Shown piece after piece: positions 6,021-41,965 of a stretch of DNA of 64,000 nucleotides. The stretch comes from Acidobacteriota bacterium. GTDB lineage: Bacteria; Acidobacteriota; UBA6911; RPQK01; JAJDTT01. The stretch spans positions 706,788 through 770,787 of the forward strand of contig CBDCMS010000003.1 of NCBI GenBank assembly GCA_965219005.1, given 5' to 3'. The notes beneath the pieces were generated by a model. The model did not search any database. It worked only from the letters and a program-made list of their open reading frames with translations, and was not told the origin of the DNA. The translations under genes and the position numbers were made by a program. Every line of letters begins with the position of its first letter. Within the stretch, counting starts at the first letter, position 1.

Positions 6021-6024
6021 GGCG

Positions 6025-17337: not shown

Positions 17338-17717
17338 TCTGGTGAGACCCAGCTGGCCGACCCTTGGATCGGAACTGCTTGTCGACCATCACCGTGATCC
17401 GGTGGCGGAAGGATGGGCTTGTGCAGCGGACAAGCGATTATTGCCGGAGAAGTGGCTAGGAGTAGAGCGGGAGAAGCCCCTCGTTTTCTCCAATCTCAGC
17501 GCAGCCGACTCGAACTACCCCAAACGGCCGATTGCAGACTGTAAACTGGGCCGCTTCGAAGCCTTGATCGTGGACGACATAGCTCCGTGACCCCTTCACT
17601 ACCTTTGGCCGGCAGTCCTGCGGTGAGTGGGCCACGATCAACTCCGGCCCCAGCATGCTAGCGACAACGGTGAGTCCCGAGGTTGACGGGGGCTCAGCCG
17701 CTGGCTAGAGTTCGGAA

Positions 17718-18959: not shown

Positions 18960-19178
18960 ACGGCTTGCAATCCCATCGCGCTTGTCTGCGGGTAGACTCC
19001 CCCAAAAGCTTTTCTACCAACTAGTGCAGCAGCCCGTCGCCATGGACCGGATACTGTTGGAAATCTACGCTGCTGAGGGATCGAAAACGCCGACCATAGC
19101 CAAGGTTGGGTTCTGGGTTTTCCTGGCGAAAGGTTTGGAGTATGAAGAGCTGAGCTGGTCCCGAGCAACCAATGTGAC

Positions 19179-21368: not shown

Positions 21369-21399
21369 GGCCCGATTTCAGTCCCCTCTTCATCGGGGG

Positions 21400-23098: not shown

Positions 23099-23736
23099 AG
23101 CCATCTCCATCAACTCCTGTCGGGCCAGCTTAAGTTGATAGAGGAGGTTTGCCTCAACCTCTCGCCCGAAGGAGCGGTGAGGGAATTTCGGGGGCAGCTT
23201 TTGGGGATGCCAAGAACAAAACGACAGGGATGCCGCATCTTCTAGCTTGAAAACGAGAGACCCTCCTCTAATTAAGAAGCTGCCACTCTGGCGCTTGCGC
23301 CCGCTTGAATCCCGGTTCGGCCAAACCTCTGCCCTCGGCTCGTCGAATGGCTTTTCGGGAAGCCTCTTCATCTGGCTTCAACCCTCCCACGGGGCGCGTT
23401 AGTCTTCGGACTCACCCTGAAACTGAAGGCGACTGGCCTCATGGTCTTTGCCCCGGAAGTCGGTCCATTGTACAGGTGTTTCCTGTCGCGAGAAGAATAG
23501 TTGTTGACAACTTCCGGTTTCAAGGGACAAGGTTGTGGCATTCTGGCTCGAATTGCGAAGCGACGCCAGTTCAACTAGCACCCTGCCACCCAGGATCGTC
23601 TTCGACATCCCATCGGCGTGGCGGAAGAAGGGCAACTCATAGATGGTCGAGTTGTAGAACGTATTGGAACGGTCCGAGCGCATCGGCGACTTCATCGTAG
23701 CCAGAAAGCGGGGGAGCCGACGGGGTTCAGGTCGCA

Positions 23737-24370
23737 TTGCCGTTCTGGATGGAGGTACCGGACGCAGCCATCCTGGGCTTTTTCCGTGCAGTGTCCAACG
23801 CGGCAGGCCATCTGCCTTTGTCAATCTACGAGAGTCGGCGCGCGAAGAAGTCGCTGACACTCGAGCAGCACCGGTCAATCAAGGACGAGCTGCCCAATTA
23901 CCTCAAGGTGAAATCCGGCTCGGGTACGCTCGGCACCACGGTGGACGGCTGCGCCGCCTTGACCGCGCTCGGCGTTAATGTCTTCAGCGACGAGGGCGAG
24001 ACTTGGCTGAAGCTAGGACCGCACGGCGTCGCTGGATGCTGCAGCTCGTTCGTCTATTATGTTCCGGACATCGTGCTCCCGCTCAATCGTGACCTTGCAG
24101 AGCGGAACTGGGAGCGGCTCGGGCAAGGCACCGCAAAAATTGCACGGGATTCTCGATTTCGTAATTGGGTCGTTCGGATCACGTGGTTACTATGATTCCG
24201 CGATCGACCGCCTCGGTGGTGTCGCTGGCGGCATTCTACGAACGAGCCTGGCCTGTCGCCCCCCCTATCCGCACGCCACCGACGATGACGTGCGAGCGTT
24301 CCGCGCATGGTACCGGGAAAACCTCCCGGAAGTATTCGCCGGCATCGAGGCAAAGCAAAGGTTTATCTAA
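23737..24370 (+). pseudogene. Hypothetical protein split across two overlapping frames (23737..24195 and 24059..24370); possible frameshifted gene
   Basis: Both frames look protein-like across the overlap. No family recognised. Confidence 0.25.
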
Positions 24371-24767
24371 GGGTCTGCGGTTGACGGTTGGGAAGTAGAT
24401 TACGGCATTCGGTTTCAACTGAATAACGGTCATGCCGATCTGATTGCTACATATTCTAACGCCGAATCGCGGACCGCCGCTGATCCGACCCTTTCAGCCT
24501 TTCATTTTGTGCCTGAGAAAGTTGGCGAAATATAGTTGGACGAGCGGTTCATTGACAGGTTTTAGCGGTCGGAGGCGGCCTCGTTGAACAGGGTACGAAG
24601 CGAAGATCGTTAAGGGATATCGAAACGCCAACCTTGCCAACGTATTTGCGCGCTATGAATGGGGGCGAACATTGGGGGATTCAACTTTGTCTCACTCGGC
24701 GGGAGCTTTCGATCGTGTCACGCAATGGCGTATGTTCTGGCGTGACTCTTGGGTTACAGTGATACCG

Positions 24768-26309
24768 ATGAATGCACAATCGTTGACTCGGAGCAAATTT
24801 CTAACCTATTCCTGGATAGTCTTAGCTCTTGTCGGCGCGACATTTGGATACCCGCAGGAAAAACTGGAACTCAAACCGGGCGTCAAGCAGCTATTCCTTG
24901 ACGATTATCTGATAAATGAGGTGCACAACCTCAGGCAGGTGTTGCATCAACCGGAGAAGATTTCAGCCGAGCCCGTGATTCGACCGGAGCATTCTTGGGA
25001 GAGTGTAAATGCAAGTACACGAAGCGCCCCGTTTTGGGACCCCGCGGAGCAGGTTTGGAAGCTCTATTACATGTGCAATTCCGAGAACAAGGTTTCTGGG
25101 GAAGCTCGAGGGGGGCAGTGCCTGGCGATTTCCAAGGACGGGCTGCATTGGACGAAGCCTAAACTCGGCCTCGTTGAGCGGGACGGATCGAAGGACAACA
25201 ATATCGTGGCCGAGCAACTCTACCAAGTTATCTTCGATGCGAGCGGTGGGAGCGAGCGTTACAAAGGGTTTTTCGGTTCATCGGGGCGAAAGCCCGCTAT
25301 TTCCGCAGACGGTCTGCACTGGCGGATGCTGGAAGTTCCGCTGATCCCGAGTAGGGATGAATCGCAGCTGATCTACGACGAACTGGCGGGGCAATATCTC
25401 GCCACTGTGAAACATGAGGGACCGTACGGGCGATCCGTTTATCTCACGACGAGCCGGGATTTTCGCGAATGGTCCACGCCGCGCCTAATCTTTCACGCTG
25501 ACGGCGAAGATCAGGATAGGAGTCGCAAACGAATCTCGGGGAGACTAACTGACGCGCGTTTTGCGCCGCTAACCCTCAATCGACCTGGAGATTACAACGT
25601 AGATGTCTACAACATGCCAGTGTTCCCATACGGAGGGATCTACATAGGCACTCCGATGTTTTTTAATCAGAGCGGGCCGACGCCGATCGGAAACTCCGAG
25701 GGGTTTCACCATGTGGAGTTGGTCACGAGCCGCGACCTGATTCGATGGGAGCGCGTGGCGGGTCGAGTGCCGTTCATGGAGACCTCGCATGTTGGTAGCG
25801 GCGCGTATGACACGGTTCAGTTGGTTCCTGCGAATCGCCCCGTGGTCCGGGACGACGAATTGTGGTTCTATCATGCCGGAAACAAGTATCGCTTCAATCC
25901 CGATACGATACGTACGCGACCTGATGGATCGAAAACCTGGGGTTTCCCAGATGACACCGGAGCGATCTATGTTTCCCGACTGCGCTTGGACGGCTTCGTC
26001 TCGCTGGATGCCGGGGAGTTGAACGGCGAATTACTTACCCGCCCTCTTATTCTGCGGGGCCGCCTGCTAATGGTAAACGCACATGTGCGGGACGGCGGGT
26101 TTCTCCGCGCCGAGATTCTGGATGCCACCGGGCGAAGGACGATGGAAGGATTCTCGCTCGTAAATGCGACCGCTCTAGCCGGCGATCAGTTACGCGCGCC
26201 ACTATCGTGGCAGGTCGGCAAAGATCTTGGTGCGCTGGCCGGCCAGGAGGTGCGGCTGCGCTTCGTCTTCCGCGAAGCCAGTCTCTATGCGTTCTGGTTG
26301 GCGGAGTGA
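24768..26309 (+). CDS. Family A protein, subfamily A2 (ends ...VRLRFVFREASLYAFWLAE)
   Basis: Signal-peptide region FLTYSWIVLALVGATFG; the ORF track starts at 24672. Motifs LELKPGVKQLFLDDYLI, SKDGLHW and DGFVSLDAG. Confidence 0.8.
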   Translation: MNAQSLTRSKFLTYSWIVLALVGATFGYPQEKLELKPGVKQLFLDDYLINEVHNLRQVLHQPEKISAEPVIRPEHSWESVNASTRSAPFWDPAEQVWKLYYMCNSENKVSGEARGGQCLAISKDGLHWTKPKLGLVERDGSKDNNIVAEQLYQVIFDASGGSERYKGFFGSSGRKPAISADGLHWRMLEVPLIPSRDESQLIYDELAGQYLATVKHEGPYGRSVYLTTSRDFREWSTPRLIFHADGEDQDRSRKRISGRLTDARFAPLTLNRPGDYNVDVYNMPVFPYGGIYIGTPMFFNQSGPTPIGNSEGFHHVELVTSRDLIRWERVAGRVPFMETSHVGSGAYDTVQLVPANRPVVRDDELWFYHAGNKYRFNPDTIRTRPDGSKTWGFPDDTGAIYVSRLRLDGFVSLDAGELNGELLTRPLILRGRLLMVNAHVRDGGFLRAEILDATGRRTMEGFSLVNATALAGDQLRAPLSWQVGKDLGALAGQEVRLRFVFREASLYAFWLAE

Positions 26310-26393
26310 ATCTAAACGGAAGTGAGTGTGCTACCAAACACAAACCGACTTGTGAATTGACGCCGCCGATTGGCGGCTTAACTATGGAAAAGC

Positions 26394-27989
26394 ATGAACA
26401 CTTGGGTGTATCAGTCATCAGCTCTGTTTGTGTTGGCAGTCTTATTTACGGCACCACACGTCAAGGCTAGTGAGGATTCGGTCCGCAACATTGGTTCACG
26501 GTTGGAGCTTTTCGTAGATCATTATCTGATTGAACGAATGGAAGGCGCTCGACTCAAGCTCCACGAGCCGCGACGGGAAGAAGTAGTCTTCAATACGGAC
26601 GGTTATGTGGGATATACGACAGTTATCAAGGATCGCGAATCCTATCGGCTGTACTACAGTTGGAGGGATCCACGGCGCACGGATGATGATGAAAGGCCAA
26701 GCTTCCCCGAAGGGAAAGAAGATGTTGTCACTCGTTATGCCGAGAGCTCTGATGGTATCCATTGGACAAAACCCAAGCTGAGCCTCTTCGTGGTGCAAGG
26801 CTCGCTCGATAATAATGTGGTCCTGGGGGGCCAGTCGTGGATTTCTAAAACCTTCAGCCCCTTCCGCGACACTCGCGTTGGTGTGCCTGTTTCGGAGCGG
26901 TTCAAGGCGTTGGGGGGGGCGTTCCATTCACCGAATGAGCCCCGCCTGGGCGGTTTGATGGCCTTGGTCTCCGCCGATGGAATTCATTGGAAGCAGCTCC
27001 GCGCAAGGCCGGTCATTAACGAATGGCATTATCCGCATCCGACAGATACCGATCAGCCCGCTGTCTTTTGGTCAGAGAGTGAAGAGCGCTACGTCTGTTA
27101 TCCCCGAGTTCGGATGAAGAATTCCAAGGAATTTGCTCACGAAGACGTATATAAGATTGGCTACCGTTGGATTGGGCGAAGCACGTCGAAGGACTTTATC
27201 AATTGGACAAAGGTGGAGCCGATGGATGTGGGGGACGCACCTGTAGAAGAGTTCTACCACAACCAGACGCATCCTTACTTTCGCGCCCCCCACATCTACA
27301 TTGCCTTGCCCGTACGATTCATGGGAGCACCCCTAAACCCCGGACGACGAGCCTTGACGGTGTCACAACTCAACGAGGTGCTGGCTGATCCCGTAGCACC
27401 GGGGAAGGCCTATAAATCCACTATGGCACTGGAGTTCACAGACATCGTGTTGCTGACTTCTCGAGGTGGTAACCGATATGATCGTACTTTTGCAGAAGCC
27501 CTTATCCGCCCTGGGCTTGATTTACGCAACTGGACCAACCGGGCCAACTATTCAACCTTGGGGGTTGTGCCGACGGGTCCCAGCGAGATGTCAATTTACA
27601 TGAAGCAGTATGGTCATTATTCATGGAGAGGGCGTATTCCGTCTGGCCATATTCGACGCTTTGCATTGCGCACTGATGGCTTTGTCTCTGTGAATGCTCC
27701 CTTCGGCGGTGGCGAGATTGTAACCAAGCCTTTGACCTTTTCTGGCAAGGAATTGGCAATTAACTATTCGACCTCTGCTCCTGGTAGCGTTCGAGTAGAA
27801 ATACAGGACAAGTTCGGCCAACCACTGGCCGGTTATTCGTTGGCAGAAGCTAGTGAGATTATTGGCGACCAGATTGAGCGAGTAGTTTCATGGAAGGAGG
27901 GTTCGGACGTAAGCAAACTAGCTGGGAAATCGATTCGGCTGCGTTTTGTAATGAAGGACGCTGACTTGTATTCCATCCGATTCAAGTGA
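26394..27989 (+). CDS. Family A protein, subfamily A1-like (ends IRLRFVMKDADLYSIRFK)
   Basis: Signal peptide MNTWVYQSSALFVLAVLFTAPHVKA. Motifs IGSRLELFVDHYLIE, SSDGIHW and DGFVSVNAPFGGGE. Lower GC than its neighbours. Confidence 0.8.
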   Translation: MNTWVYQSSALFVLAVLFTAPHVKASEDSVRNIGSRLELFVDHYLIERMEGARLKLHEPRREEVVFNTDGYVGYTTVIKDRESYRLYYSWRDPRRTDDDERPSFPEGKEDVVTRYAESSDGIHWTKPKLSLFVVQGSLDNNVVLGGQSWISKTFSPFRDTRVGVPVSERFKALGGAFHSPNEPRLGGLMALVSADGIHWKQLRARPVINEWHYPHPTDTDQPAVFWSESEERYVCYPRVRMKNSKEFAHEDVYKIGYRWIGRSTSKDFINWTKVEPMDVGDAPVEEFYHNQTHPYFRAPHIYIALPVRFMGAPLNPGRRALTVSQLNEVLADPVAPGKAYKSTMALEFTDIVLLTSRGGNRYDRTFAEALIRPGLDLRNWTNRANYSTLGVVPTGPSEMSIYMKQYGHYSWRGRIPSGHIRRFALRTDGFVSVNAPFGGGEIVTKPLTFSGKELAINYSTSAPGSVRVEIQDKFGQPLAGYSLAEASEIIGDQIERVVSWKEGSDVSKLAGKSIRLRFVMKDADLYSIRFK

Positions 27990-28006
27990 GGTCAATCGCG
28001 GCCGAT

Positions 28007-28026
28007 ATTGTCTCCTACGAGACAAT
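28007..28026 (+). terminator. Candidate intrinsic-terminator hairpin downstream of 26394..27989
   Basis: Perfect 8-bp stem attgtctc/gagacaat with a 4-nt loop, followed by tcgtttgtg. Confidence 0.3.
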
Positions 28027-28093
28027 TCGTTTGTGGTGTCTGAAGTTCCGGCCTGAATATGCCCGAAAACTTCGAAGTAAACACAGAGGTTAT

Positions 28094-29437
28094 CACTAGT
28101 GTCCAAACGTTGTTCTATCGCACAACTCTAAGTTACTGGTAAGAATTGTTTTAACATCGAAATCCAATTTTTTCGATACTTTTTGATATGAAACTGTGGC
28201 AGGTGCCGACCCGGTTCTCCAATCCTGTGGCCTGCAAGCCGATAGGATGCCTAGATGGATATGCGCAGAACCGTCTTTGCCCAGCTGATGGATTGCGTCC
28301 CCAGGTATCAATTTCAACTCTGTGCTCAACGCTACCGAGGAGATTACAAGATAAAAGACTTCTCCTGCTGGAAGCAGTGGCTGTGTATGGTCTTCGCCCA
28401 GCTGACCTATCGCGAGAGTCTGCGGGATATCGAAGCCACGCTAGGTTCGGTTGCAGGCAGACTCTACCACATGGGAATTCGAGGCCGCGTGGCCCGCAGC
28501 TCTTTGGCCCATACCAACGAGAATCGGGATTGGCGCATTTATGCCGATTTCGCTCAAGTCTTGATCCAAGAGGCACGGACTTTGTACGCAGGCGAGCCCT
28601 TTGCCGTGGAACTGGAAAAAACGGTCTACGCGCTCGATTCCACCACCATCGATCTGTGTCTTTCGGTGTTCCCTTGGGCCCGCTTCCGCAAACGCAAAGG
28701 AGCCATCAAACTGCATACTTTGCTCGACTTACGTGGCAACATCCCCACCTTTGTCGAGGTCACCGAGGGGCGGGTTCACGACGTCAATATCCTCGACTAT
28801 CTGCTGGTCCAACCCGGCTCCATTTACATCCTGGATCGCGGCTATCTCGATTTCGCACGTCTTTATCGGCTGCACCAGAGTTCCGGTTTCTTCATCATTC
28901 GTGCCCACCAGCGCCTGAATTTCCGCCGTCTGTACTCCCATCGTGTCGACAAGAGCATCGGGCTAAGAAGCGATCAAACCGGGGTCCTGAGCGGCCGTTA
29001 CACGGCCAACAAGTACCCCGACAAACTCCGACGAGTCCGCTACTACGACGCCGAGACCCAAAAACACTTGGTCTTCTTGAGCAACAACTTTTCCCTGACT
29101 GCCCTCACTGTCGCCCAGCTGTACCGTTGCCGCTGGCGCGTGGAACTTTTCTTCAAATGGATCAAGCAACACCTGCGCATCAAAGCCTTCTATGGGACTT
29201 CTCCGAACGCCGTCAAAACTCAGATCTGGATCGCCATCTCCGTGTATATCCTCGTTGCCATCCTGAAAAAACGCCTGAAATTGGAGCTGAGCCTCTACAC
29301 AACTCTACAGATTCTCAGCCTGACTGTTTTCGAGAAAACCCCATTAATTCAAGTACTTACCAGCTTCGATTACAGGAACCACCAGGGAGGTTCATGTAAC
29401 CAGTTGAATCTATTTGACTTATGATTGGACACTAGTG
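28094..29437 (+). mobile_element. Intact IS4-family insertion sequence (1344 bp) with 13-bp terminal inverted repeats and a perfect 9-bp target-site duplication
   Basis: Inverted repeats cactagtgtccaa at 28094..28106 and ttggacactagtg at 29425..29437. The 9-bp duplication agaggttat occurs at 28085..28093 and 29438..29446. Confidence 0.85.
28255..29424 (+). CDS. IS4-family DDE transposase
   Basis: The C-terminal motif YRCRWRVELFFKWIKQHLRIKAFYGTSPNAVKTQIWIAISVYIL is typical of the DDE_Tnp_1/IS4 family. 389 aa. Confidence 0.85.
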   Translation: MDMRRTVFAQLMDCVPRYQFQLCAQRYRGDYKIKDFSCWKQWLCMVFAQLTYRESLRDIEATLGSVAGRLYHMGIRGRVARSSLAHTNENRDWRIYADFAQVLIQEARTLYAGEPFAVELEKTVYALDSTTIDLCLSVFPWARFRKRKGAIKLHTLLDLRGNIPTFVEVTEGRVHDVNILDYLLVQPGSIYILDRGYLDFARLYRLHQSSGFFIIRAHQRLNFRRLYSHRVDKSIGLRSDQTGVLSGRYTANKYPDKLRRVRYYDAETQKHLVFLSNNFSLTALTVAQLYRCRWRVELFFKWIKQHLRIKAFYGTSPNAVKTQIWIAISVYILVAILKKRLKLELSLYTTLQILSLTVFEKTPLIQVLTSFDYRNHQGGSCNQLNLFDL

Positions 29438-29447
29438 AGAGGTTATT

Positions 29448-30344
29448 ATGAATGCAAGCCTAGTACTTTGGTCCAGGTTTTTACTTCGATGTTCGCTCAC
29501 CATTCTTGTTGCTGCGACTTACGGACACGCTCAGGAACAATTGGAGCTTAAGCCAACCGCCAAGCAGCTTTTCCTCGATGACTACGTTATCAAGAGAGTG
29601 CATAACCTCCGGCGCGTACTGCATCAGCCGGCGAAAATTGTACCCGAGCCAGTGATTAGTCCTGAGCATTCCTGGGAAAATGTGACCGTAGGGACACGCA
29701 ATACGCCTTATTGGGACTCCGGTGAAAAGGTTTGGAAACTCTATTACCATGGAACGGCTATGGAAAGCGACGACGTCGGTCAAAGTCGACTTACTTATAG
29801 ACAGTGCCTCGCAATTTCCAAGGATGGGCTGTACTGGACGAAGCCCAATCTCGGCTTGATCGAGTGGAACGAATCAAAAGAAAACAATATCGTGGCGTCG
29901 AGCGGCAACTTTCTGTATCACGTAATCCATGATGTGAATGGTGGAAACGAACGCTACAAAGGACTCTTTGGAATGTCGGGCCGGAAGTCGGCTGTCTCTC
30001 CCGACGGGCTGAATTGGCGCTTCCTCGATGCACCAGTAATTCCGAGTCAGGATCAATCGAAGTTGAACTATGACGAACTGGCTGGGGAATATCTGCTTAC
30101 GGTAAAGCATGAGGGGCCGTACGGACGCTCCGTTTATCTCACGACGAGCAAGGATTTTCGAGAATGGTCCAAGCCGTGGCTGATCTTTCACGCTGACGGC
30201 GAGGATCAAGAGGCGAGCCGCAGGCGGATCGCTGCCAGATTGACGGACGCGCGGTACGCACCGCTTACCGTCAACCGGCCCCTGGCAGCTCCAAGAAGCC
30301 TACCGGATGTCGATGGAGACCGGCTTTCCGGGGAAGGAGGATGA
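29448..30344 (+). pseudogene. Truncated family A (subfamily A2) gene covering only the N-terminal ~280 residues
   Basis: Colinear with 33401..34957 up to ...LTVNRP, then about 20 unrelated residues and a stop. The IS4 element sits 10 bp upstream of its ATG. Confidence 0.6.
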
Positions 30345-31948
30345 CCCGGGGCACCTTCCTTCTGACCACCGTCCTCGCCGCCGCCTCGACCCTCTGGAGT
30401 GGTCAGCCGGTCATAAAGATCGATTCCGACCGGCAGCTGTTCGTGGACGAACTCCTCATCGCTCGCCAACAGGGAGTGACTCTTCAACTCCATTCGCCCA
30501 TTCCGCGGGAGGTGGCGCTGGCGATGGAAGAGCCCTGGGAGCAGGAGGATCTGTCCTCTCCGGTGGTCATGAAGGACGGCAGTCGATATCGCATGTGGTA
30601 CAGCGTCTGGCACAGCATAGGGGAGGAGGAGCGTGCCCTGGGTCTGCGCCGGACAGGCCATGTTCGGAAGGGAGTCAGATACACCGGGTACGCCGAAAGC
30701 AAGGACGGCATTCACTGGCACAGGCCCATTCTCGGCCTCCATGATTTTATGGGATCGAGAAACAACAATCTGGTCTGGGCAGGTCCCGGCGATCACATAT
30801 CGGTTCTGAAGGATGCAAACCCGGGTGTACCGGAGGATGAGCGTTACAAGGCGGTGACCCGGGCCAGAGGGGCCTACGGGTTGGTGTCTGGGGACGGCAT
30901 CCGATGGCGACTGATTCAGGAGGAGCCAATCCTCAGCGGGGGGGCGTTCGATTCCCATAACACTGTCTCTCAAGATCCTTGGACCGGGGAGTACGTCTAC
31001 TACGGGCGCGGCTTCCTGGACCGCTCCTCGAAGAAGCAGTGGGACCGGCAGGCAGGCGACCGCCGCAACCTGGTTCGCCGTATTCGCCGGGCAAGTTCCA
31101 AAGATTTCCGGAGCTGGTCGGCGCTGGAGTTTATCGACCTGGGCCCGGAGCCGCTGGATCATCTCTACACCAATGCAGCTACACCCTACCTCAGGGCCCG
31201 GGGACTGTATCTGATCTTTCCCATGCGCTTCGTGCCGGAACGGAAGTTTCACCAGGATTGGCCTTACCAGGGTCTGTCCGATGTCGTATTCGCTTCCAGT
31301 CGGGACGGTGTGCACTGGAAGCGCACCTTTCTGGGAGCTTTTCTGCGGCCTGGTCTGGACTCGAGGAACTGGCACGAACGAGCGATCATCCAGGGGCAGG
31401 GTCTGGTGGAAACGGGACCCGGTGAACTCTCCCTCTACTGGGTGGAGAACAAGCGGACCGATGGCTGCAGGATACGCCGCGGTACCATCCGTACGGACGG
31501 CTTTGTCTCCGTCAATGCAGGCTATGAAGGTGGAGAGTTCCTCACTCCTCTCCTGACTTTCAAGGGCGAGCACTTGTGGCTGAATTACTCGACGTCGGCC
31601 GTAGGCTGGCTCAAGCTGGAGATTCAGGATGTTGCGGGCAGACCCATCTCGGGCTTCGGTTTAGATGAAAGCCAGGAGATTTTCGGTGATGAGCTGGAGA
31701 GGAAGGCCCACTGGATCTCAGGCTCCCAAGTAGGCCAGCTTCAGGGGCGCCCGGTGAGGTTGAGATTCAAGATGAAGGACGCAGATCTCTTCTCCTTCCG
31801 GTTCGGGGGGAGGACCTCGGATCCACCAACTTCCAATGGTTCACTCCGCCAGCCAGAACGCATAGAGACTGGCTTCACGGAAGACGAAGCGCAGCCGCAC
31901 CTCCTCGCCCGCCAGCGCACCCAGATCTTTTCCGGCCTGCCACGATAG
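30341..31948 (+). CDS. Family A protein (A1-like) with a 48-residue C-terminal read-through beyond the usual ...DLFSFRF ending
   Basis: Signal peptide MTRGTFLLTTVLAAASTLWS. High GC (about 60%) inside a lower-GC block. The start overlaps the end of the truncated gene (ATGA), and the 3' extension runs antisense into 31841..33355. Confidence 0.75.
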   Translation: MTRGTFLLTTVLAAASTLWSGQPVIKIDSDRQLFVDELLIARQQGVTLQLHSPIPREVALAMEEPWEQEDLSSPVVMKDGSRYRMWYSVWHSIGEEERALGLRRTGHVRKGVRYTGYAESKDGIHWHRPILGLHDFMGSRNNNLVWAGPGDHISVLKDANPGVPEDERYKAVTRARGAYGLVSGDGIRWRLIQEEPILSGGAFDSHNTVSQDPWTGEYVYYGRGFLDRSSKKQWDRQAGDRRNLVRRIRRASSKDFRSWSALEFIDLGPEPLDHLYTNAATPYLRARGLYLIFPMRFVPERKFHQDWPYQGLSDVVFASSRDGVHWKRTFLGAFLRPGLDSRNWHERAIIQGQGLVETGPGELSLYWVENKRTDGCRIRRGTIRTDGFVSVNAGYEGGEFLTPLLTFKGEHLWLNYSTSAVGWLKLEIQDVAGRPISGFGLDESQEIFGDELERKAHWISGSQVGQLQGRPVRLRFKMKDADLFSFRFGGRTSDPPTSNGSLRQPERIETGFTEDEAQPHLLARQRTQIFSGLPR

Positions 31949-33355
31949 CGGTGCGCGCAAGTGATCGCCGGCTAGAGCTGTCGCGTTTTCGAGCGAAAAC
32001 CCTTCCAGCGTCCTTCGCCCGGTGGCATCCAGAATTTCAGCGCGGAGAAAACCGCCGTCCCTCACTTGTGCGTTTACCATCAGCAAGCGGCCCCGCAGAA
32101 TAAGAGGGCGGGTAAGTAATTCGCCCTTCAATTCCCCGGCATCCAGCGAGACAAAGCCATCCAGGCGCAGTCGGGAAGCATAGATCGCTCCGGTGTCATT
32201 GGGGAAACCCCAGGCCTTGGATCCATCAGGTCGCGTATGTACTGTATCGGGATTGAAGCGATATCTGTTTCCTGCGTGATAGAACCACAATTCGTCCTCC
32301 CGGACCACGGGCCGATTCGCAGGAACCAACTGAACTGTGTCATACGCGCCGCTACCAACATGTGAGGTCTCCATGAACGGCGCCCGACCCGCCACTCGCT
32401 GCCATCGAATCAGGTCGCGGCTGGTGACTAGCTCCACGTGATGAAACCCCTCGGAGTTTCCGATGGGCGTTGGTCCACTCTGATTGAAAAACATCGGAGT
32501 GCCTATATAAACCCCTCCGTAAGGGAATATTGGCATGTTATAGACATCCGTGTTGTAGTCAGCCGGCCGGTTGATGGTAAGTGGGGCGTACCGCGGATCC
32601 GTCAATCTGGCGGCGATCCGCCTGCGGCTTGCCTCTTGATCTTCGCCGTCAGCATGAAAGATCAGCCGCGGCTTCGACCATTCTCGAAAATTCTTGCTCC
32701 TGGTTAGATAAACCGAGCGTCCGTACGGCCCCTCATGCTTCACAGTGGCGAGAAATTGCCCCGCCAGTTCGTCGTAGATCAGCTGCGATTCATCTTGACT
32801 CGGGATCAGTGGAACTTCCAGCATTCGCCAATGCAGACCGTCGGCGGAAACAGCGGGTCTTCGCCCCTGTGACCCGAAAAGCCCCTTGTAACGCTCGCTC
32901 CCACCGGTCGCATCGAAGATAACATGGTAAAGCTGCTCGGCCACGATATTGTTGTCCTTCGATCCCTCCCACTCAACGAGGCCGAGCTTGGGCTTCGTCC
33001 AGTTCAGCCCGTCCTTGGAAATCGCCAGGCATTGTCCCGGTCGAGCCTGCCCAGAAACATTCTCAATTCTCGTGACCACCCTGTAATAGAGTTTCCACAA
33101 CTGCTCCGCGGGGTCCCAAAACGGGGCGTTGCGTGTGCTTACAATTACACTCTCCCAGGAATGCTCCGGTAGAATCACGGGCTCGGCCGAAATCTTCTCT
33201 GGTTGATGCAAGACCCGCCTGAGGTTGTGCACCTCCCTGATAAGATAATCGTCGAGAAATAGCTGCTTAACGCCCGGTTGAGGCGCCGGAGCTTTCTGCG
33301 AATAGACAAAGGTTGCGCTGAAGAAAACTATTAAAATCCAATAATAAGCTAACAT
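31841..33355 (-). CDS. Family A protein, subfamily A2
   Basis: Signal peptide MLAYYWILIVFFSATFVYS. About 85% identical to 24768..26309 and ends ASLYAFWLAE. Confidence 0.8.
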   Translation of the reverse strand: MLAYYWILIVFFSATFVYSQKAPAPQPGVKQLFLDDYLIREVHNLRRVLHQPEKISAEPVILPEHSWESVIVSTRNAPFWDPAEQLWKLYYRVVTRIENVSGQARPGQCLAISKDGLNWTKPKLGLVEWEGSKDNNIVAEQLYHVIFDATGGSERYKGLFGSQGRRPAVSADGLHWRMLEVPLIPSQDESQLIYDELAGQFLATVKHEGPYGRSVYLTRSKNFREWSKPRLIFHADGEDQEASRRRIAARLTDPRYAPLTINRPADYNTDVYNMPIFPYGGVYIGTPMFFNQSGPTPIGNSEGFHHVELVTSRDLIRWQRVAGRAPFMETSHVGSGAYDTVQLVPANRPVVREDELWFYHAGNRYRFNPDTVHTRPDGSKAWGFPNDTGAIYASRLRLDGFVSLDAGELKGELLTRPLILRGRLLMVNAQVRDGGFLRAEILDATGRRTLEGFSLENATALAGDHLRAPLSWQAGKDLGALAGEEVRLRFVFREASLYAFWLAE

Positions 33356-33400
33356 TCTGTCCTCAATAAAGTGTACACATCATTATTTACAGAGGTGATT

Positions 33401-34957
33401 ATGAATTCAAGCCTGGTACGTGCGTCCGCGTTTCTACTTCGGTGGTCGCTCACCATTCTGGTTGCTGGGACTTACGGATACGCTCAGGAGCAATTGGAGC
33501 TCAAACCAGGCGTCAAGGAGCTTTTCCTCGATGACTACTTCATCAGGGGAGTGCATAACCTCCGGCGTGTACTGCATCAGCCGGAGAAAATTGTACCGGG
33601 GCCAGTGATTGGTCCCGAGCACTCCTGGGAAAATGTGATAGTAGGGACACGCAATACGCCCTATTGGGACCCCAGTGAACAGGTTTGGAAACTCTACTAC
33701 CATGGGGCGGCTATGGAAGACGACGGCGAAGGTCACCGTCGAATGACGTATCGACAGTGCCTTGCAATTTCCAAGGACGGACTGCATTGGACAAAGCCCA
33801 ATCTCGGCTTGATCGAGTGGAACGGATCAAGAGAAAACAATATCGTCGCATCGAGCAGTAACTTTCTGTATCACGTAATACATGATGCGAATGGTGGAAA
33901 CGAACGCTACAAAGGACTCTTTGGAATGTCGGGGCGGAAGCCGGCTGTCTCTCCCGACGGGCTGAATTGGCGCTTCCTCGAGGCGTCGGTAATTCCGAGT
34001 CAGGATCAATCGAAGTTGAACTATGACGAACTGGCTGGGGAATATCTGCTTACGGTAAAGCATGAGGGGCCGTACGGACGCTCCGTTTATCTCACGACGA
34101 GCAAGGATTTTCGAGAATGGTCCAAGCCGCGGCTGATCTTTCACGCTGACGGCGAGGATCAAGAGGCGAGCCGCAGGCGGATCGCTGCCAGATTGACGGA
34201 CCCGCGGTACGCCCCGCTTACCATCAACCGGCCGGCTGACTACAACACGGATGTCTATAACATGCAGGTGTTTCGCTACCAAGGAGTGTATATAGGGATG
34301 CCGATGTTCTTCAACCAGAGTGGGCCGACGCCGATCGGAAACTCCGAGGGATTTCACCATGTGGAACTTGTAATGAGTCGCGATCTGATTCGATGGCAGC
34401 GGGTGGCGGGTCGGGCACCGTTCATGGAAACTTCGCATGTCGGCAAGGGCGGCTACGACACAGTGCAGTTGATTCCTGCCGATCGTCCGGTAGTTCGGGA
34501 CGGCGAGTTGTGGTTTTACTACTCGGGCAACAGAGGCCGCTTCATTCCCGATTCTGTTTATACGCGGCCCGACGGGAGGAAAGTGTTCGGATTCCCGGAG
34601 CACACCGGGGCAGTTCATGTGTCGCGGCTGCGCCTTGACGGCTTCGTTTCGATGGACGCAGGTGAATTGGATGGCAAGCTGCTTACCCGTCCAATGTTCT
34701 TACGGGGACGCCGCCTTTTCGTGAATGCAAAGGTAAGCGAGGGCGGATTCTTGCGCGTTGAGATCCTGGATACCGCCGGGCGAACGCCAGTTGATGGATT
34801 CGCATTCGGAAATGCAGTTCCGATCACCGGAGATGAATTGCGAGCGCCTTTGACATGGCGGGACGGAAAGGATGTTGGTGCGCTGGCCGGCCAGGAAGTG
34901 CGGTTGCGTTTTGTCCTACGCCGGGCAAGTCTTTATGCGTTCTGGGTAGCGGAGTGA
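33401..34957 (+). CDS. Family A protein, subfamily A2
   Basis: Likely start MNSSLVRASAFLLRWSLTILVAG, preceded by gaggtgatt; the ORF track starts at 33371. Ends ASLYAFWVAE. Confidence 0.8.
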   Translation: MNSSLVRASAFLLRWSLTILVAGTYGYAQEQLELKPGVKELFLDDYFIRGVHNLRRVLHQPEKIVPGPVIGPEHSWENVIVGTRNTPYWDPSEQVWKLYYHGAAMEDDGEGHRRMTYRQCLAISKDGLHWTKPNLGLIEWNGSRENNIVASSSNFLYHVIHDANGGNERYKGLFGMSGRKPAVSPDGLNWRFLEASVIPSQDQSKLNYDELAGEYLLTVKHEGPYGRSVYLTTSKDFREWSKPRLIFHADGEDQEASRRRIAARLTDPRYAPLTINRPADYNTDVYNMQVFRYQGVYIGMPMFFNQSGPTPIGNSEGFHHVELVMSRDLIRWQRVAGRAPFMETSHVGKGGYDTVQLIPADRPVVRDGELWFYYSGNRGRFIPDSVYTRPDGRKVFGFPEHTGAVHVSRLRLDGFVSMDAGELDGKLLTRPMFLRGRRLFVNAKVSEGGFLRVEILDTAGRTPVDGFAFGNAVPITGDELRAPLTWRDGKDVGALAGQEVRLRFVLRRASLYAFWVAE

Positions 34958-35138
34958 AACCATTGGAAGATCAGGCATCACCCGCGCTCAGAAAAGCGGA
35001 TGAAACGTAAACAGAGGTGAGGCTACAACCAGGCACAAACCGACCTATGAATGCTTCTCCAACCGAGAACGACGGTGGCCGCCGACCCGATTCTCCATGT
35101 CGCCGCGCCTGAGTTGAGAAAGTGAGACCACTGTCATC

Positions 35139-36845
35139 ATGATTCCCAGACACATTCTGCTTACCGCCATTGCAATCGCATGCGCTTCGGCAGTTGGACC
35201 GGTGTCCTATTGCCAAGAACTCTTTTCGCCCAGGCCCGCATCGCGCCCACGGGTTCTCATGGACTACTACCACAAGAAGTTACCGCAATCCAAGGTGGGA
35301 AGGTATCTGTTGACAGGTGGTCGTGCGGATAACGTCGGACGTTATGGATTCAATGATTTTTCTCACACCAACAGTTTTGATGCGCTCTTTTTGATCTTAG
35401 AGAGGGAATTCGCGTTATACGTAAATCGTAAGCCGTTTACGACATCGGGCCTGTCCGAAATAGATATCGTCTTGATAATCAACCCAGAACATCCGGATTT
35501 AGCTCCTGATATCCCCGTCATTTCAGATGCAGAGATCGAGGTATTGAGAGAATTCGTGAAGGAGGGGGGGAGCTTGATGGTAATGATCAACGCTGGGGGC
35601 CGTGGGACGGAAAGATTCGAAGAAGTGCAAACCCGGAAACTGCTGAGGAATTTTGGTTTAGATTGGTATGACAACGATACAAGTTATACGGACATAGCCC
35701 TTGGGCCACAGCATCCCTACTTTTACGATATTGATGTTTTTCACTACGGAGCGGGTTGCACCATCAAGATACTTCCTGATGCCCAAGAAGAAGAGAGAAT
35801 GCTGGAAGTGCACGAAGATGAAGGATCACCAAAAACCAGAGGCCCCGGACTTGTTATGGTGCGACACGGAAAGGGAAAGGTCATGGTAGTTGGGGACACG
35901 GGATCGTGGGGAGCCAATATGGCGCGACCCTGGGCTCAGAATGAAATATTCCTGAAGCAGATGTTCAGGCACCTAAAACGGGATAACGATGTCAAGCCGG
36001 CGGCCTACTTCCCAGGCCAGTCACTACTTTACGATGCCCGGTTTGTGGAGCTGGCAGCGATTCCAGTGAGGAATACGATTAACCAAGTTCGGCATCCAGA
36101 AGCGCGCGTCTTCCAACCCACGCCTAGAACAGAACTACCGTACCTGGAATCTGAAGGGAAACTCCGATTGCGATGTGTCTCAGAAAGCGCGAGTGGTGCC
36201 AGAAAGTTCGAAGCTTGGGTTGATTCATTCGCGCGTTTCGAGGAGACGACCAAGCTCTCACAGACGGAATCGATTAGCTTCGGAGCCAGTCGGCAGGGAA
36301 ACGTCTTTGACGTAGAGGCTCAGGGAAAGTACGCCGCTTGGATGGCTCCCGACATAGGGCACTTGATTGCACTCTTGCCTCATGACGGAATACGTTTGGG
36401 AGATCGTTGGGAGAAAGTGGAACAACTTCGAATTATTCCGATTCAGAGTTCGGATTCTGCGTTGACTCGGCCAGTTGAAACAAAAATGACCTATCTTCGA
36501 GATGAAGTCATTGGAAAGAGACGCTGTCGCCTTATTCGCACGCAAGCGCGGACCTGGCTTGCGGATGCAGGTGTCAGAGTGGAGGATTTACTCCCTCATG
36601 ATTGGGTCCGAAAGTGGAGTGGCTCCAATTTCGAGTTAGTAAAGGGTCGAGGGGGCACCCTTATTTTCAGACGTGAACAATGGGTAGACGCAGAGACTGG
36701 AGTAGTGGTCAAATCCGAAGCAAGAACGGGTATCACTGTTTGGATTCGTGATCTGAGTAAGCCTTTGAGTGTGAGCAACGAGGATAGGGATCAAACGATG
36801 CTGACGACAGTTTCGCATATGGCCATGTTTGAACTGAAACCCTGA
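35139..36845 (+). CDS. Secreted hypothetical protein with a ThuA/class-I glutamine-amidotransferase-like (DUF4350-like) N-terminal region
   Basis: Signal peptide MIPRHILLTAIAIACASAVG. The motif EIEVLREFVKEGGSLMVMINAGG resembles the ThuA/GATase1-like fold. Low GC (about 48%). Confidence 0.4.
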   Translation: MIPRHILLTAIAIACASAVGPVSYCQELFSPRPASRPRVLMDYYHKKLPQSKVGRYLLTGGRADNVGRYGFNDFSHTNSFDALFLILEREFALYVNRKPFTTSGLSEIDIVLIINPEHPDLAPDIPVISDAEIEVLREFVKEGGSLMVMINAGGRGTERFEEVQTRKLLRNFGLDWYDNDTSYTDIALGPQHPYFYDIDVFHYGAGCTIKILPDAQEEERMLEVHEDEGSPKTRGPGLVMVRHGKGKVMVVGDTGSWGANMARPWAQNEIFLKQMFRHLKRDNDVKPAAYFPGQSLLYDARFVELAAIPVRNTINQVRHPEARVFQPTPRTELPYLESEGKLRLRCVSESASGARKFEAWVDSFARFEETTKLSQTESISFGASRQGNVFDVEAQGKYAAWMAPDIGHLIALLPHDGIRLGDRWEKVEQLRIIPIQSSDSALTRPVETKMTYLRDEVIGKRRCRLIRTQARTWLADAGVRVEDLLPHDWVRKWSGSNFELVKGRGGTLIFRREQWVDAETGVVVKSEARTGITVWIRDLSKPLSVSNEDRDQTMLTTVSHMAMFELKP

Positions 36846-36948
36846 CCTTGACGCCTTTGGACCTCTTCTAGAAGTAAGAATCGTTATCTGCTGCTGGCCG
36901 ATCGTGCGTGCTACTTATAAACATCCGGAAAACTTGAGCGGGGTAAAT

Positions 36949-38568
36949 ATGAGAGCCAATACACTCGACACTTGGGTGATAAGTGTGCATAAGCTGACCT
37001 TGCGCGCCAGTCTGCGATTATCTCATGCCAGTAGAGAAGCCGCATTCGTCCTGATTCTATTTGCTTTTTCATTCCTACAGCCGGCGCTATCAGCCCAAGC
37101 GAAGGATTCAGCAGAAAAACCAGCAAACATCCGCGGATTGCTGCATATAGGATCACAACGACAGCTCTTTCTGGATGAATCCATTGTGGAGACAATGGAA
37201 AATACGAAGCGCCGGTTGAACCCAGCTCTAAAGAGCATATCCAATCCTGTCTTGAAGGTAGATAAACCCTGGGAAGGTCCGGACAACCGGATAGATTGGA
37301 TCTTCTACGATCATAGACTGAAGAAATTTCGGCTGAGGTACAAGAGTAGGATCTTCTATGCGAGCGGGAGAGATGAAAAGGGAAACATCATCGTAAGAGG
37401 AGAAGGAGGCAGCGACCCCGTGCTTGTCTGCGAAGCCTTTTCTGAGGACGGTATCGAATGGGAAAAACCTCGATTGGGATTGGCTGAGTTCGAGGGTACT
37501 ACTGCGAATAACATAGTTCCAGATGATAGGCATTGTGCCTTCGCATTTGAAGATCTCCATGATCCTGATCCCAACCGCAGGTACAAAGGGATCAGGTTTT
37601 CCAAGAACGGCGGGCAGTGGTACAGCGATAAACTAACATTCTCATATTATTATTCACCGGATGGGTACAACTGGACAGCATTTGGAGAGAATCCCGTCAA
37701 TAGAGATTGGGGATGGCCCGTCTTGACGGGCTGGGACCCGATCCGGAGGTGCTATGGCGTTCATTTCGAGAATGAACACCACAGGCGCTCAGACTCGCGT
37801 CCTTTCAAAGAAAAGAGAGTCATTGGAAGGGCGGAGAGTCCGGATATGATTCATTGGTCAGGTGCCGAAACAATTATCGTCCCGGACGGTCGCGATTACC
37901 CGGATACAGAATTCTATCAACTCGAGACCTCACATTATGAGGGATGGAGTGTGGGGTTCCTCTGGAATTTTTCCACTACCAACACCACCATACACCCACA
38001 ATTTGTCTTTAGCCGTGATGGTACTCACTATAGCCGTGAGCACAGGGAGCCTGTCATTCGACGGGGAGACAATGGAGATTTTGATTCGGCGGCAATTTAT
38101 GCCAGGCAGCCGATTGTTCATAAGGGAGAGATCTATTGCTTTTACTATGGTACCAACTGGCGCTCGCCGGAGACTCTGGTGGAATTGGGTGAAAAGGCTA
38201 CCTGCGGGATCGGATTGGCGAAGCTCCCCCTGGATGGATTTGTCTCTTTAGAGGGAGCAAGGCGAGGCTACAGTATCGTAACAACGCGGTCGTTTACCTT
38301 TACGGGCGCATCTCTTTATTTGAATATGCGGGCCGCGTTGCAACAATGGGGCGCCGGTCCTTGTGAAGTGAAAGTTGAATTGCTGGATGGCCGTCATGTG
38401 CCTATTGAAGGTTATACATTTGATGATGCGGACAATCTTTCCACTACGAACATAAAGCAACAGGTTACGTGGAATGATGAATCGGATATTACTTCATTGG
38501 CAGGAAGGCCTATTCGATTAAGAATCTTTTTCACAAATGCGAAATTGTACGCGTTTCAGTTTATATAA
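36949..38568 (+). CDS. Family A protein, divergent member ending IRLRIFFTNAKLYAFQFI
   Basis: Hydrophobic AAFVLILFAFSFLQPALSAQA. Motifs SEDGIEW and DGFVSLEGA. Low GC. Confidence 0.75.
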   Translation: MRANTLDTWVISVHKLTLRASLRLSHASREAAFVLILFAFSFLQPALSAQAKDSAEKPANIRGLLHIGSQRQLFLDESIVETMENTKRRLNPALKSISNPVLKVDKPWEGPDNRIDWIFYDHRLKKFRLRYKSRIFYASGRDEKGNIIVRGEGGSDPVLVCEAFSEDGIEWEKPRLGLAEFEGTTANNIVPDDRHCAFAFEDLHDPDPNRRYKGIRFSKNGGQWYSDKLTFSYYYSPDGYNWTAFGENPVNRDWGWPVLTGWDPIRRCYGVHFENEHHRRSDSRPFKEKRVIGRAESPDMIHWSGAETIIVPDGRDYPDTEFYQLETSHYEGWSVGFLWNFSTTNTTIHPQFVFSRDGTHYSREHREPVIRRGDNGDFDSAAIYARQPIVHKGEIYCFYYGTNWRSPETLVELGEKATCGIGLAKLPLDGFVSLEGARRGYSIVTTRSFTFTGASLYLNMRAALQQWGAGPCEVKVELLDGRHVPIEGYTFDDADNLSTTNIKQQVTWNDESDITSLAGRPIRLRIFFTNAKLYAFQFI

Positions 38569-41803: not shown

Positions 41804-41965
41804 CTGGCGAGAGTATGGATCAGAGTTTGAAGAATACGACAAACTGGTTCCGTATCGGTGCGATTATTGAAAAGAAATAGGGCGTCACAAAAGTGCCGCA
41901 ATTCCCCGTTTGTTTTCGGAGCAGTTCTCACTCGGGGTGGTACAACAATGGGGGGGTGGTCACTG

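What the first reader, a model, noticed from the sequence alone, without database searches (positions are those of the whole stretch)
30281..31948. Cassette-like replacement: a high-GC paralog inserted precisely between a truncated gene and a convergent gene, and its stop codon is lost
Gene 29448..30344 is colinear with its A2 paralogs up to ...LTVNRP (about 30280) and then breaks off. About 60 bp later, after an RBS-like ggaaggagg, a different-subfamily gene (30341..31948, about 60% GC versus 45–55% for its neighbours) begins. That gene lacks the usual stop after ...FSFRF and reads 48 codons further, antisense into the 3' end of the convergent gene 31841..33355. The inserted block is essentially one ORF with no flanks. 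This suggests gene-precise recombination or cassette capture rather than ordinary tandem duplication.
Basis: seen in the sequence. Interest (0 to 1): 0.7.

Follow-up and report, generated by a model that had tools for sequence, protein, structure and literature searches.

The report
Old deletion scars around one glycosidase-like gene
A glycoside-hydrolase-like gene sits between a broken paralog and a convergent paralog and has lost its own stop codon, but this is an old, inherited rearrangement scar in an unstable array of paralogs, not a mobile gene cassette.

Summary
Gene A2t (29448-30280) matches its paralog A2 at 91% and the match stops exactly at 30280. Sixty unique bases later the B-family gene B' (30341-31948) starts. 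B' runs 47 residues past the family's ...FSFRF end and overlaps the convergent gene A (31841-33355, minus strand) by 108 nt.

Both junction 40-mers are identical in 14 independent contigs from 11 samples, one of them a short-read assembly. Misassembly is therefore excluded and the missing stop is inherited.

The cassette interpretation is not supported:
- B' (60% GC, GC3 0.72) has the typical composition of the window. Its neighbours are the low-GC genes.
- The junctions carry no repeats or attC-like hairpins, and no integrase was found.
- The block never appears in another context with the same ends.

Related strains show many other breakpoints, insertion-sequence (IS) insertions, pseudogenes and a gene-conversion tract in the same array. 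A sister lineage keeps the same B'/A junction as a roughly 90-nt remnant.

B' itself is under purifying selection (dN/dS about 0.19). It models as a five-bladed beta-propeller plus beta-sandwich with a disordered tail.

Best reading: illegitimate-recombination (deletion) scars, filtered by selection to keep B' intact. Low interest.

The parts
24732..26309 (+). A1, a full-length A-family paralog and the first gene of the co-directional run A1-B-A2t-B'
   Evidence: It is 87% identical at nucleotide level to the convergent gene A. GC is 56%. There is no Pfam family for it.
26394..27989 (+). B, a B-family paralog that is 40% identical at protein level to B' and has a normal C-terminus (...YSIRFK*)
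   Evidence: GC is 52%.
28094..29437 (+). IS4-like insertion sequence (DUF4372 + DDE_Tnp_1 transposase at 28255-29424), present only in this strain. It is inserted in the ribosome-binding site of A2t, with 13-nt terminal inverted repeats CACTAGTGTCCAA and a 9-bp target duplication AGAGGTTAT (28085-28093 and 29438-29446).
   Evidence: The element is absent from L010 and L020-L026, where B is followed directly by the A2t ORF.
29448..30280 (+). A2t, the 5' 833 nt of an A2-type paralog, i.e. a truncated pseudogene remnant. It contains a gene-conversion tract copied from A2 at about 30105-30235.
   Evidence: It is 91% identical to 33391-34233, with the match ending at 30280. Most other strains carry two 5-nt deletions that put the native ATG out of frame, and L006/L007 keep only the last 275 nt. 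The conversion tract is shown.
30281..30340 (+). Unique 60-nt leader of B', including GGAAGGAGG at 30332-30340. The left breakpoint lies at 30280/30281.
   Evidence: It matches nothing else in the window or in any fetched locus apart from the orthologous position. It differs by 0-1 nt among 14 contigs. It shows no significant secondary structure.
30341..31822 (+). B' core: a signal-peptide-bearing glycoside-hydrolase-like protein (five-bladed beta-propeller plus C-terminal beta-sandwich), residues 1-494, with an intact native N-terminus (MxRxxFL, as in homologues)
   Evidence: More than 4000 homologues were found. Alignments are. dN/dS is 0.19 against the L006 lineage. The AlphaFold2 model has pLDDT 86, and the top Foldseek hits are GH137, GH43, GH130 and GH32 structures. 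GC is 60% and GC3 is 0.72.
31823..31948 (+). Read-through tail of B': 41 codons plus the stop. It begins with 18 nt of the 3' flank of gene A and then runs antisense through the last 35 codons and the stop codon of A. The right breakpoint lies within GGATCCACCA (about 31822-31828).
   Evidence: Comparison with the natural end of P0002 and with the 3' flanks of paralogs A1 and A2 is. The tail models as disordered, with pLDDT below 50 for residues 496-535. There is 1 substitution in 123 nt between lineages, synonymous in both frames.
31841..33355 (-). A, a full-length convergent A-family paralog whose last 108 nt are overlapped by the B' tail
   Evidence: It is 95.5% identical to gene A of the L002 lineage, where the same junction plus a roughly 90-nt degenerate B' 3' remnant follows it. 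dN/dS is 0.19.
33401..34957 (+). A2, a full-length paralog divergent from A with 45 nt between the two start codons. It is the donor of the conversion tract in A2t.

Best explanation
The region is part of a dense array of paralogous, secreted, glycoside-hydrolase-like beta-propeller genes (families A, A2, B, B' and X). The array lies within a locus rich in sialidase (BNR_2), transporter and other glycoside-hydrolase-like genes, in an uncultured bacterium that is probably a Poribacteria relative.

B' is a functional gene with composition typical of the window. Two old illegitimate-recombination events left scars on either side of it, and they were most simply deletions:
1. The first removed the 3' half of the upstream paralog A2* and the spacer, down to 60 nt before the B' start. 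This left the pseudogene stub A2t.
2. The second removed the last few codons and the stop of B', plus the spacer to the convergent gene A. Translation of B' now runs 41 extra codons antisense into A and adds a disordered tail.

The breakpoints hug the B' ORF because variants that cut into B' would have been removed by selection, not because a cassette mechanism cut there. B' is probably transcribed with A1-B-A2t and initiates at its native ATG, which overlaps the stub's stop codon as ATGA.

Shown: the breakpoints, their age and fixation, the composition, purifying selection on B', and the instability of the array. Inferred: that the events were deletions and were two separate events, and how B' is expressed.
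For: **The junctions are real, identical and old.**
- The exact junction 40-mers occur in 14 contigs from 11 samples, including one short-read contig.
- They are also present in the L006/L007 lineage, which is 94-96% identical at nucleotide level.
- The right junction survives as a degenerate remnant of the window's B' type next to gene A in the L002-L004 lineage.

**B' is the gene with typical composition and is functional.**
- GC and GC3 match the bulk of the window, while A1, B, A2t, A, A2, the 568-aa gene and X are lower.
- dN/dS is 0.19 over 73 differences.
- The native N-terminus and the whole conserved domain are retained, and the fold model is confident.

**The tail looks like neutral read-through.** It is absent from all homologues and is modelled as disordered.

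**A2t is a decaying remnant.** Most strains carry frameshifting 5-nt deletions, and L006 carries a further 5' truncation.

**The array is a hotspot of ordinary rearrangement.**
- A 5-kb deletion in L006, and loss of the outer-membrane-protein gene in the window, leaving a 118-nt inverted remnant at 23581-23698.
- A B' allele fused to a truncated 729-aa gene in L002-L005.
- IS4, IS66 and IS5 insertions at different sites in different strains.
- A2 is a pseudogene in L002, and an A2-to-A2t gene-conversion tract is present in the window.

**Tandem paralogs next to B' orthologues are normal.** This is seen in the outgroups L028-L030 and in L002, where P0002 is followed by A2.

**No cassette hallmarks were found**.

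**The type is known.** Loss of a stop codon that extends a gene into a convergent neighbour is the documented 'group iii' origin of long convergent overlaps (PMC2478687).
Against: - No genome with the pre-event arrangement was found, that is an intact A2* upstream of B', or B' with its own stop next to A. Deletion versus insertion therefore cannot be decided, nor can one event versus two.
- Having both breakpoints within 60 nt and 6 codons of the conserved B' domain is somewhat tidy for two independent random deletions.
- A2-type homology also starts only 7-13 nt before the ATG in three different contexts.
- B' carries a 2-nt insertion in L008 and a 59-nt insertion in L009. If these are real and not assembly errors, selection on B' is not universal.
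- Expression was not tested.
Confidence: 0.68

Rival explanations
1. One-step duplicative replacement. A fragment copied from a complete B' gene elsewhere, spanning -60 to codon 494, was pasted by two simultaneous illegitimate crossovers between position 843 of A2* and the 3' flank of convergent gene A, replacing what lay between them. This keeps the first reader's 'replacement' idea but needs no dedicated cassette machinery.
For: A second B' lineage with a natural C-terminus (P0002, 87% identical, followed in tandem by A2) coexists in the L002-L004 genomes with the remnant of the window-type B'/A junction. Two B' copies therefore may have existed in the ancestor. Both breakpoints closely bracket the conserved domain.
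Against: It requires two non-homologous joins in a single event. No donor carrying the same leader was found. In outgroup L028, an A-like gene directly upstream of a B' orthologue is a natural arrangement, which makes a simple internal deletion sufficient for the left junction.
Confidence: 0.2
2. Dedicated gene-cassette system: integron-like or another site-specific or ORF-scale mobilisation process that moves single glycoside-hydrolase-like ORFs within the array.
For: Several homology boundaries in the array lie close to ORF ends. The B' block runs from -60 to 6 codons past the conserved domain. A2 homology starts 7-13 nt before the ATG in three different contexts. A-type homology ends 12-16 nt after the stop.
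Against: - There are no conserved motifs, direct repeats or inverted repeats at the junctions.
- Junction DNA folds no better than shuffled sequence, with z-scores of -0.2 to +1.1.
- No tyrosine recombinase was found among the ORFs scanned.
- The B' block occurs in only one context with these ends.
- Short spacers, selection for intact genes and gene conversion confined to coding homology together explain boundaries near ORF ends.
Confidence: 0.03
3. Recent horizontal acquisition of a foreign high-GC gene.
For: B' is 4-8 GC points above its immediate neighbours.
Against: B' matches the majority composition of the 64-kb window, where GC3 of 0.71-0.80 is the norm, and the neighbours are the outliers. 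B' orthologues sit in the same kind of sialidase/transporter locus in distant relatives. The arrangement is fixed across lineages that differ by 4-6% at nucleotide level.
Confidence: 0.03
4. Assembly chimera or sequencing error that created the break and removed the stop codon.
For: The window comes from a 13x long-read metagenome assembly, and two relatives show indels in B'.
Against: Identical junctions occur in 14 contigs from 11 samples, including the independent short-read Logan contig L027, which spans both junctions without gaps. Shifting the G-run at 31805-31810 by one base in either direction does not restore a nearby stop (read directly from the sequence).
Confidence: 0.01

Closest known systems
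Long convergent gene overlaps created by loss of a stop codon (3'-end extension, 'group iii' of Palleja et al. 2008, PMC2478687)
   Same: One gene is longer than all its orthologues at the 3' end only. Its partner has normal length. [quoted passage not shown] The arrangement is conserved only among close relatives.
   Different: The stop was not lost by a point mutation or frameshift. A breakpoint removed the last codons, the stop and the spacer. The state is verified in many independent assemblies, so it is not an annotation or sequencing artefact.
Birth-and-death evolution of tandem paralog arrays in bacterial glycan-utilisation loci, with pseudogene stubs, ectopic gene conversion and IS-associated rearrangement
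   Same: The array holds many paralogs of one superfamily side by side and contains truncated and frameshifted copies. It also shows a demonstrable conversion tract between paralogs, strain-specific deletions and IS insertions.
   Different: The protein family has no Pfam model and is uncharacterised. No IS end lies at either of the two junctions in question, so IS involvement in these particular events is not shown.
Integron gene cassettes
   Same: Superficially, a single promoterless ORF with very short flanks sits inside an array of co-directional genes.
   Different: There is no attC-like imperfect inverted repeat, no attI site or IntI integrase, no re-use of the unit in other contexts, and the 3' end is truncated inside the gene.
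Five-bladed beta-propeller glycoside hydrolases and phosphorylases (GH43, GH32, GH130, GH137)
   Same: The predicted fold of B' (propeller plus C-terminal beta-sandwich) matches these structures, with Foldseek probability 1.0.
   Different: Sequence identity is only 9-16% and no Pfam or PDB sequence match was found. Catalytic residues and substrate are unknown.

Membership tests
Integron gene cassette | An attC site (imperfect inverted repeat forming a hairpin) at the 3' end of the cassette | tested here: not met
   The repeat search over 29400-33450 found no inverted repeat at either junction. ssDNA folds of 30251-30350 and 31790-31870 are no more stable than shuffles, with z-scores of -0.23 and +0.46.
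Integron gene cassette | An IntI tyrosine recombinase and an attI site adjacent to the array | tested here: not met
   Pfam scans of 28 of the window's largest ORFs (all 200 aa or more) found DDE transposases (IS4-like, IS5-like, Tn3-type) but no integrase. Smaller ORFs were not scanned.
Integron gene cassette | The same unit, with the same ends, found in different contexts | tested here: not met
   The unit with these ends occurs only in the single context A2t|B'|A, in 14 contigs. The related allele P0002 has different 5' and 3' boundaries.
Stop-loss 3' extension giving a convergent overlap | The gene is longer than its orthologues at the 3' end only, and the extra part is not conserved in the family | tested here: met
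   B' is 535 aa against 445-517 aa for its homologues, which end 0-3 residues after FRF, or 12 residues after FRF in P0002. The tail is modelled as disordered.
Stop-loss 3' extension giving a convergent overlap | [quoted passage not shown] | tested here: met
   Gene A is 504 aa and colinear with A1 and with gene A of L002 up to its stop. The overlap is 31841-31948, i.e. 108 nt.
Pseudogene remnant (A2t) | Colinear with a full-length paralog and then broken, with disabling mutations in some strains | tested here: met
   Homology ends at 30280. Two 5-nt deletions occur in 10 strains, and L006 has an additional 1-nt insertion and a 5' truncation.
Five-bladed beta-propeller glycoside hydrolase clans (GH43/32/130/137) | Five-bladed beta-propeller catalytic fold | tested here: met
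   The AlphaFold2 model has pLDDT 86 and pTM 0.84. Foldseek against the PDB gives top hits BT_0996 (listed by the PDB only as a glycoside hydrolase; GH137 from memory), GH43, GH130 and GH32, with E-values from 1e-10 to 1e-6.
Five-bladed beta-propeller glycoside hydrolase clans (GH43/32/130/137) | Sequence membership in a curated family and conserved catalytic acidic residues | tested here: not met
   B' has no Pfam hit, and the A-type genes hit only sub-threshold. There is no PDB sequence hit with E below 0.1. Catalytic residues were not examined.
Tandem duplication followed by internal deletion | An ancestral genome with the intact upstream paralog and spacer | tested here: inconclusive
   None was found in GTDB genomes, JGI metagenomes or the protein database. 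Those searches have limited sensitivity: the last one did not even return the window's own A2.

The most novel reading that the evidence does not exclude
An unrecognised ORF-scale copy-and-replace process operates in these Poribacteria-like glycosidase arrays and moves or swaps single paralog ORFs with only a ribosome-binding site's worth of flank. The A2t|B'|A arrangement would be one of its products. So would the inverted gene A placed between B' and A2, and the A2 copies whose homology begins 7-13 nt before the ATG in three different contexts.
Probability: 0.04. Interest if true: 0.6.

Novelty: new member of a known kind. Interest (0 to 1): 0.13.

Why it matters
The main value is as a worked negative. 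A tidy 'one ORF, no flanks, different GC, lost stop' pattern can arise from ordinary deletion scars that selection has filtered in a paralog array, and the GC contrast can point the wrong way.

There is also minor practical value:
- It documents a verified 108-nt convergent overlap created when a breakpoint removed the stop codon.
- It shows that a large, uncharacterised family of beta-propeller glycoside-hydrolase-like proteins is expanded next to sialidases in an uncultured lineage that is probably Poribacteria.
- It shows that the locus is a hotspot of IS activity and gene conversion.

Tried and rejected
**Searches for the ancestral arrangement.**
- An exact-pattern scan of JGI metagenomes with the B' leader gave 0 hits.
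- The search for related loci with B' returned only relatives at 32-54% identity, both in GTDB genomes and in JGI metagenomes.
- A protein search with the A2t stub, looking for an intact A2*, returned only the 331-aa stub cluster and distant proteins at 58% identity or less. It missed the window's own A2, so its negative result is weak.

**Cassette hallmarks.**
- The repeat search, blastn-short of the leader and spacers, and ssDNA folding of three junctions were all negative.

**Other tests.**
- The promoter and terminator scan of 24000-35500 gave counts equal to shuffled sequence.
- I compared the A1-B spacer and the 3' end of A2 with the B' leader by eye, to see whether the leader derives from an A-type 3' end. 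There was no convincing similarity.
- I considered models in which the arrangement arose by inversion between the inverted A2t and A repeats (I1-I3), or by a simple 3953-nt tandem duplication (D1). I rejected both. Gene A is not chimeric, being 87% identical to A1 along its whole length, and only the first 843 nt of the putative second duplication unit match.
- The B-A2t spacer looks, from memory, like the N-terminus of an IS6-type transposase. Pfam gave no hit, so this idea is not used.
- A frameshift in the G-run at the FRF end was considered as the cause of the stop loss. It is rejected because neither the +1 nor the -1 frame gives a nearby stop.
Full report
**What is in the sequence**

The window (ENA assembly ERZ25067264, contig ctg836442, 1.86 Mb) carries a run of paralogous genes with no Pfam family:
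- A1 (24732-26309, +)
- B (26394-27989, +)
- an IS4-like element
- A2t (29448-30344, +)
- B' (30341-31948, +)
- A (31841-33355, -)
- A2 (33401-34957, +)
- a 568-aa gene
- X (36949-38568, +)

A and B types are about 28% identical to each other, and X belongs to the same superfamily.

Self-BLASTN shows A2t matching A2 at 91% over 843 nt, with the match ending exactly at 30280. The multiple alignment places the break after AACCGGCC.

The next 60 nt are unique and end in GGAAGGAGG followed by the B' ATG. That ATG overlaps the stub's TGA.

B' is 535 aa. Its homologues are 445-517 aa and end 0-3 residues after the ...FSFRF motif. The ORF continues to 31948 and overlaps convergent gene A by 108 nt.

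**Two corrections to the observation**

First, the nearest relative, P0002 (87% identity), ends ...FRFGDRTSDGSQTGD*. It shares G(G/D)RTSD with B', so the 3' breakpoint is at 31822, six codons after FRF. Ten to sixteen bases of the conserved 3' flank of A-type genes begin at about 31828. Only 41 codons are read-through.

Second, the GC contrast points the other way. The window is 57.2% GC and most of its genes are 59-62% with GC3 of 0.71-0.80. B' is 60.1% with GC3 of 0.72. A1, B, A2t, A, A2, the 568-aa gene and X are the low-GC genes, at 48-56% with GC3 of 0.50-0.63.

**Not an artefact, and not recent**

Exact look-ups of B' and its 90%-identity cluster members returned 14 contigs from 11 samples with the same core order A2t-B'-A. 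These are the window, L006-L010 and L020-L027, and they include a 2.2-kb short-read Logan contig that spans both junctions. In the 11 of them that extend far enough upstream and downstream and still carry A1 and B, the order is A1-B-A2t-B'-A-A2.

The 40-mers across both junctions are identical in all 14. The most divergent lineage, L006/L007 (94-96% nucleotide identity), has the same junctions. It keeps only the last 275 nt of A2t, directly after an outer-membrane-protein gene.

A sister lineage, L002-L005, is 96-98% identical in the flanking sialidase/transporter genes. Three of its contigs (L002-L004) keep gene A, followed by the same junction sequence and a degenerate B' 3' fragment of about 90 nt. 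That fragment carries the diagnostic bases of the window's B' type. The right junction therefore predates the split of these lineages.

It is not met: the relatives lack the stop too.

**What B' is**

- Between the window and L006, the B' core has 44 synonymous and 29 non-synonymous differences, giving dN/dS of 0.19, the same as gene A.
- Its N-terminus (MTRGTFL...) aligns with the MxRRxFL signal region of homologues.
- An AlphaFold2 model built on 51 sequences has pLDDT 86 and pTM 0.84. It shows a beta-propeller followed by a beta-sandwich ending at residue 488. Residues 496-535 have pLDDT below 50.
- The best Foldseek hits in the PDB are BT_0996 (GH137), GH43, GH130 and GH32 enzymes, at 9-16% identity. 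No hit is detectable at sequence level.
- B' orthologues at 57-60% identity in other metagenomes sit beside BNR_2 sialidases, SSF transporters, TonB-type outer-membrane proteins and further paralogs of the same superfamily.
- The window's gamma-glutamyltransferase is 78-81% identical to proteins from 'Candidatus Poribacteria' MAGs.

**The array is unstable in ordinary ways**

- The window alone has an IS4-like insertion at 28094-29437, with 13-nt inverted repeats and a 9-bp target duplication, inside the A2t ribosome-binding site.
- Most other strains have two 5-nt deletions that put the A2t start out of frame.
- L006 has lost about 5 kb (A1, B and the 5' part of A2t). The window has lost the outer-membrane-protein gene except for a 118-nt inverted remnant.
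- IS66/DruA, IS5, IS3 and Mutator-type elements sit at different places in different strains.
- In L002-L005 the B' allele P0002 lacks its first 32 codons and abuts a truncated 729-aa gene. The A2 that follows it is a pseudogene.
- The window's A2t carries a tract of about 130 nt copied from A2. The other strains lack it, which shows ectopic gene conversion between paralogs.
- L008 and L009 have 2-nt and 59-nt insertions in B' that may be real or may be assembly errors.

**Tests of the cassette idea**

- No direct or inverted repeats mark the junctions.
- The leader and spacers have no other copies.
- Junction DNA folds no better than shuffled sequence.
- Pfam scans of 28 large ORFs found DDE transposases but no integrase.
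- The block is never seen with the same ends in another context.
- Promoter-like and terminator-like sites are at background level.

**Interpretation**

The most economical account is that B' is a resident, selected gene flanked by two old illegitimate-recombination scars.

The left scar is most simply an internal deletion. It removed the 3' half of an upstream A2-type paralog and most of the spacer. An A-like gene directly upstream of a B' orthologue is seen in outgroup L028, and tandem paralogs are the rule.

The right scar removed the last codons, the stop and the spacer between B' and convergent gene A. This produced a disordered 41-residue read-through tail. It is the known route to long convergent overlaps (PMC2478687).

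Because spacers in this array are only 45-100 nt and B' is under purifying selection, the breakpoints that survive will necessarily lie close to the ORF.

I could not find a genome that preserves the ancestral state. A one-step duplicative replacement from a second B' copy therefore remains a serious rival. A P0002-like gene coexists with the junction remnant in L002-L004. A dedicated ORF-scale mobility mechanism is not excluded but has no positive evidence.

**Verdict**

The feature is real and inherited, and it is of a known kind. The cassette-capture reading is not supported, and interest is low.

Noticed in passing
window 2269-6023 and 17617-21371: A 3755-nt direct repeat at 99.92% identity carries a GHL10-like 413-aa gene and a 729-aa gene. 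It is a very recent segmental duplication or a mobile unit. In the L002-L005 relatives, a truncated copy of the 729-aa gene abuts the truncated B' allele.
   Followed up: partly
L003 17489-19977; L006 13180-15503; L002 18245-20591; window 56749-57651: A DruA-domain ORF (PF14236, the Druantia defence protein family) always lies next to an IS66-type DDE transposase, and the pair is inserted at different sites in different strains. This looks like an IS66-like element with a DruA-like passenger or accessory gene. In the window, a DruA ORF lies between the two halves of a Tn3-type transposase (DUF4158 at 54926-56221 and DDE_Tnp_Tn3 at 59402-60394).
   Followed up: no
window 27990-28096: The spacer between B and A2t translates to ...IVSYETIRLWCLKFRPEYARKLRSKHRG. 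From memory this resembles the N-terminus of an IS6/IS26-type transposase. In strains without the IS4 insertion this frame is open from B's stop into the A2t body, giving a 331-aa ORF. Pfam gave no hit, so the resemblance is unverified.
   Followed up: partly
window 13609-15207 and 15314-17002; 41858-43546; 21593-23371: Further paralogs related to the A/B superfamily. A tandem pair is 91% identical to each other and about 68% identical to the 3' end of B. At least ten superfamily members therefore lie in 64 kb, next to two BNR_2 sialidases, SSF and MFS transporters, and enolase-superfamily (MR_MLE) and 2-hydroxyacid dehydrogenase genes.
   Followed up: no
L009 9813-9872 (after window-equivalent 30619); L008 (after window-equivalent 30503): A 59-nt AT-rich insertion (GTTAAACTCTTTGGTTGTCGTC...) and a CG insertion interrupt B' in two strains. 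These could be real pseudogenisation or long-read assembly artefacts.
   Followed up: no
window 30341-38568 versus L002 9994-14662: B', A2 and X are only 86-87% identical between the window lineage and the L002 lineage. The surrounding sialidase/transporter genes and gene A are 95-98% identical. This suggests either allelic replacement by recombination with a more distant relative, or retention of different ancestral paralogs.
   Followed up: partly
window 23581-23698: A 118-nt inverted remnant (91% identity) of the 3' part of the roughly 1200-aa CarboxypepD_reg/OMP beta-barrel gene. In all other strains that gene precedes the array, and the window has lost the rest of it.
   Followed up: no
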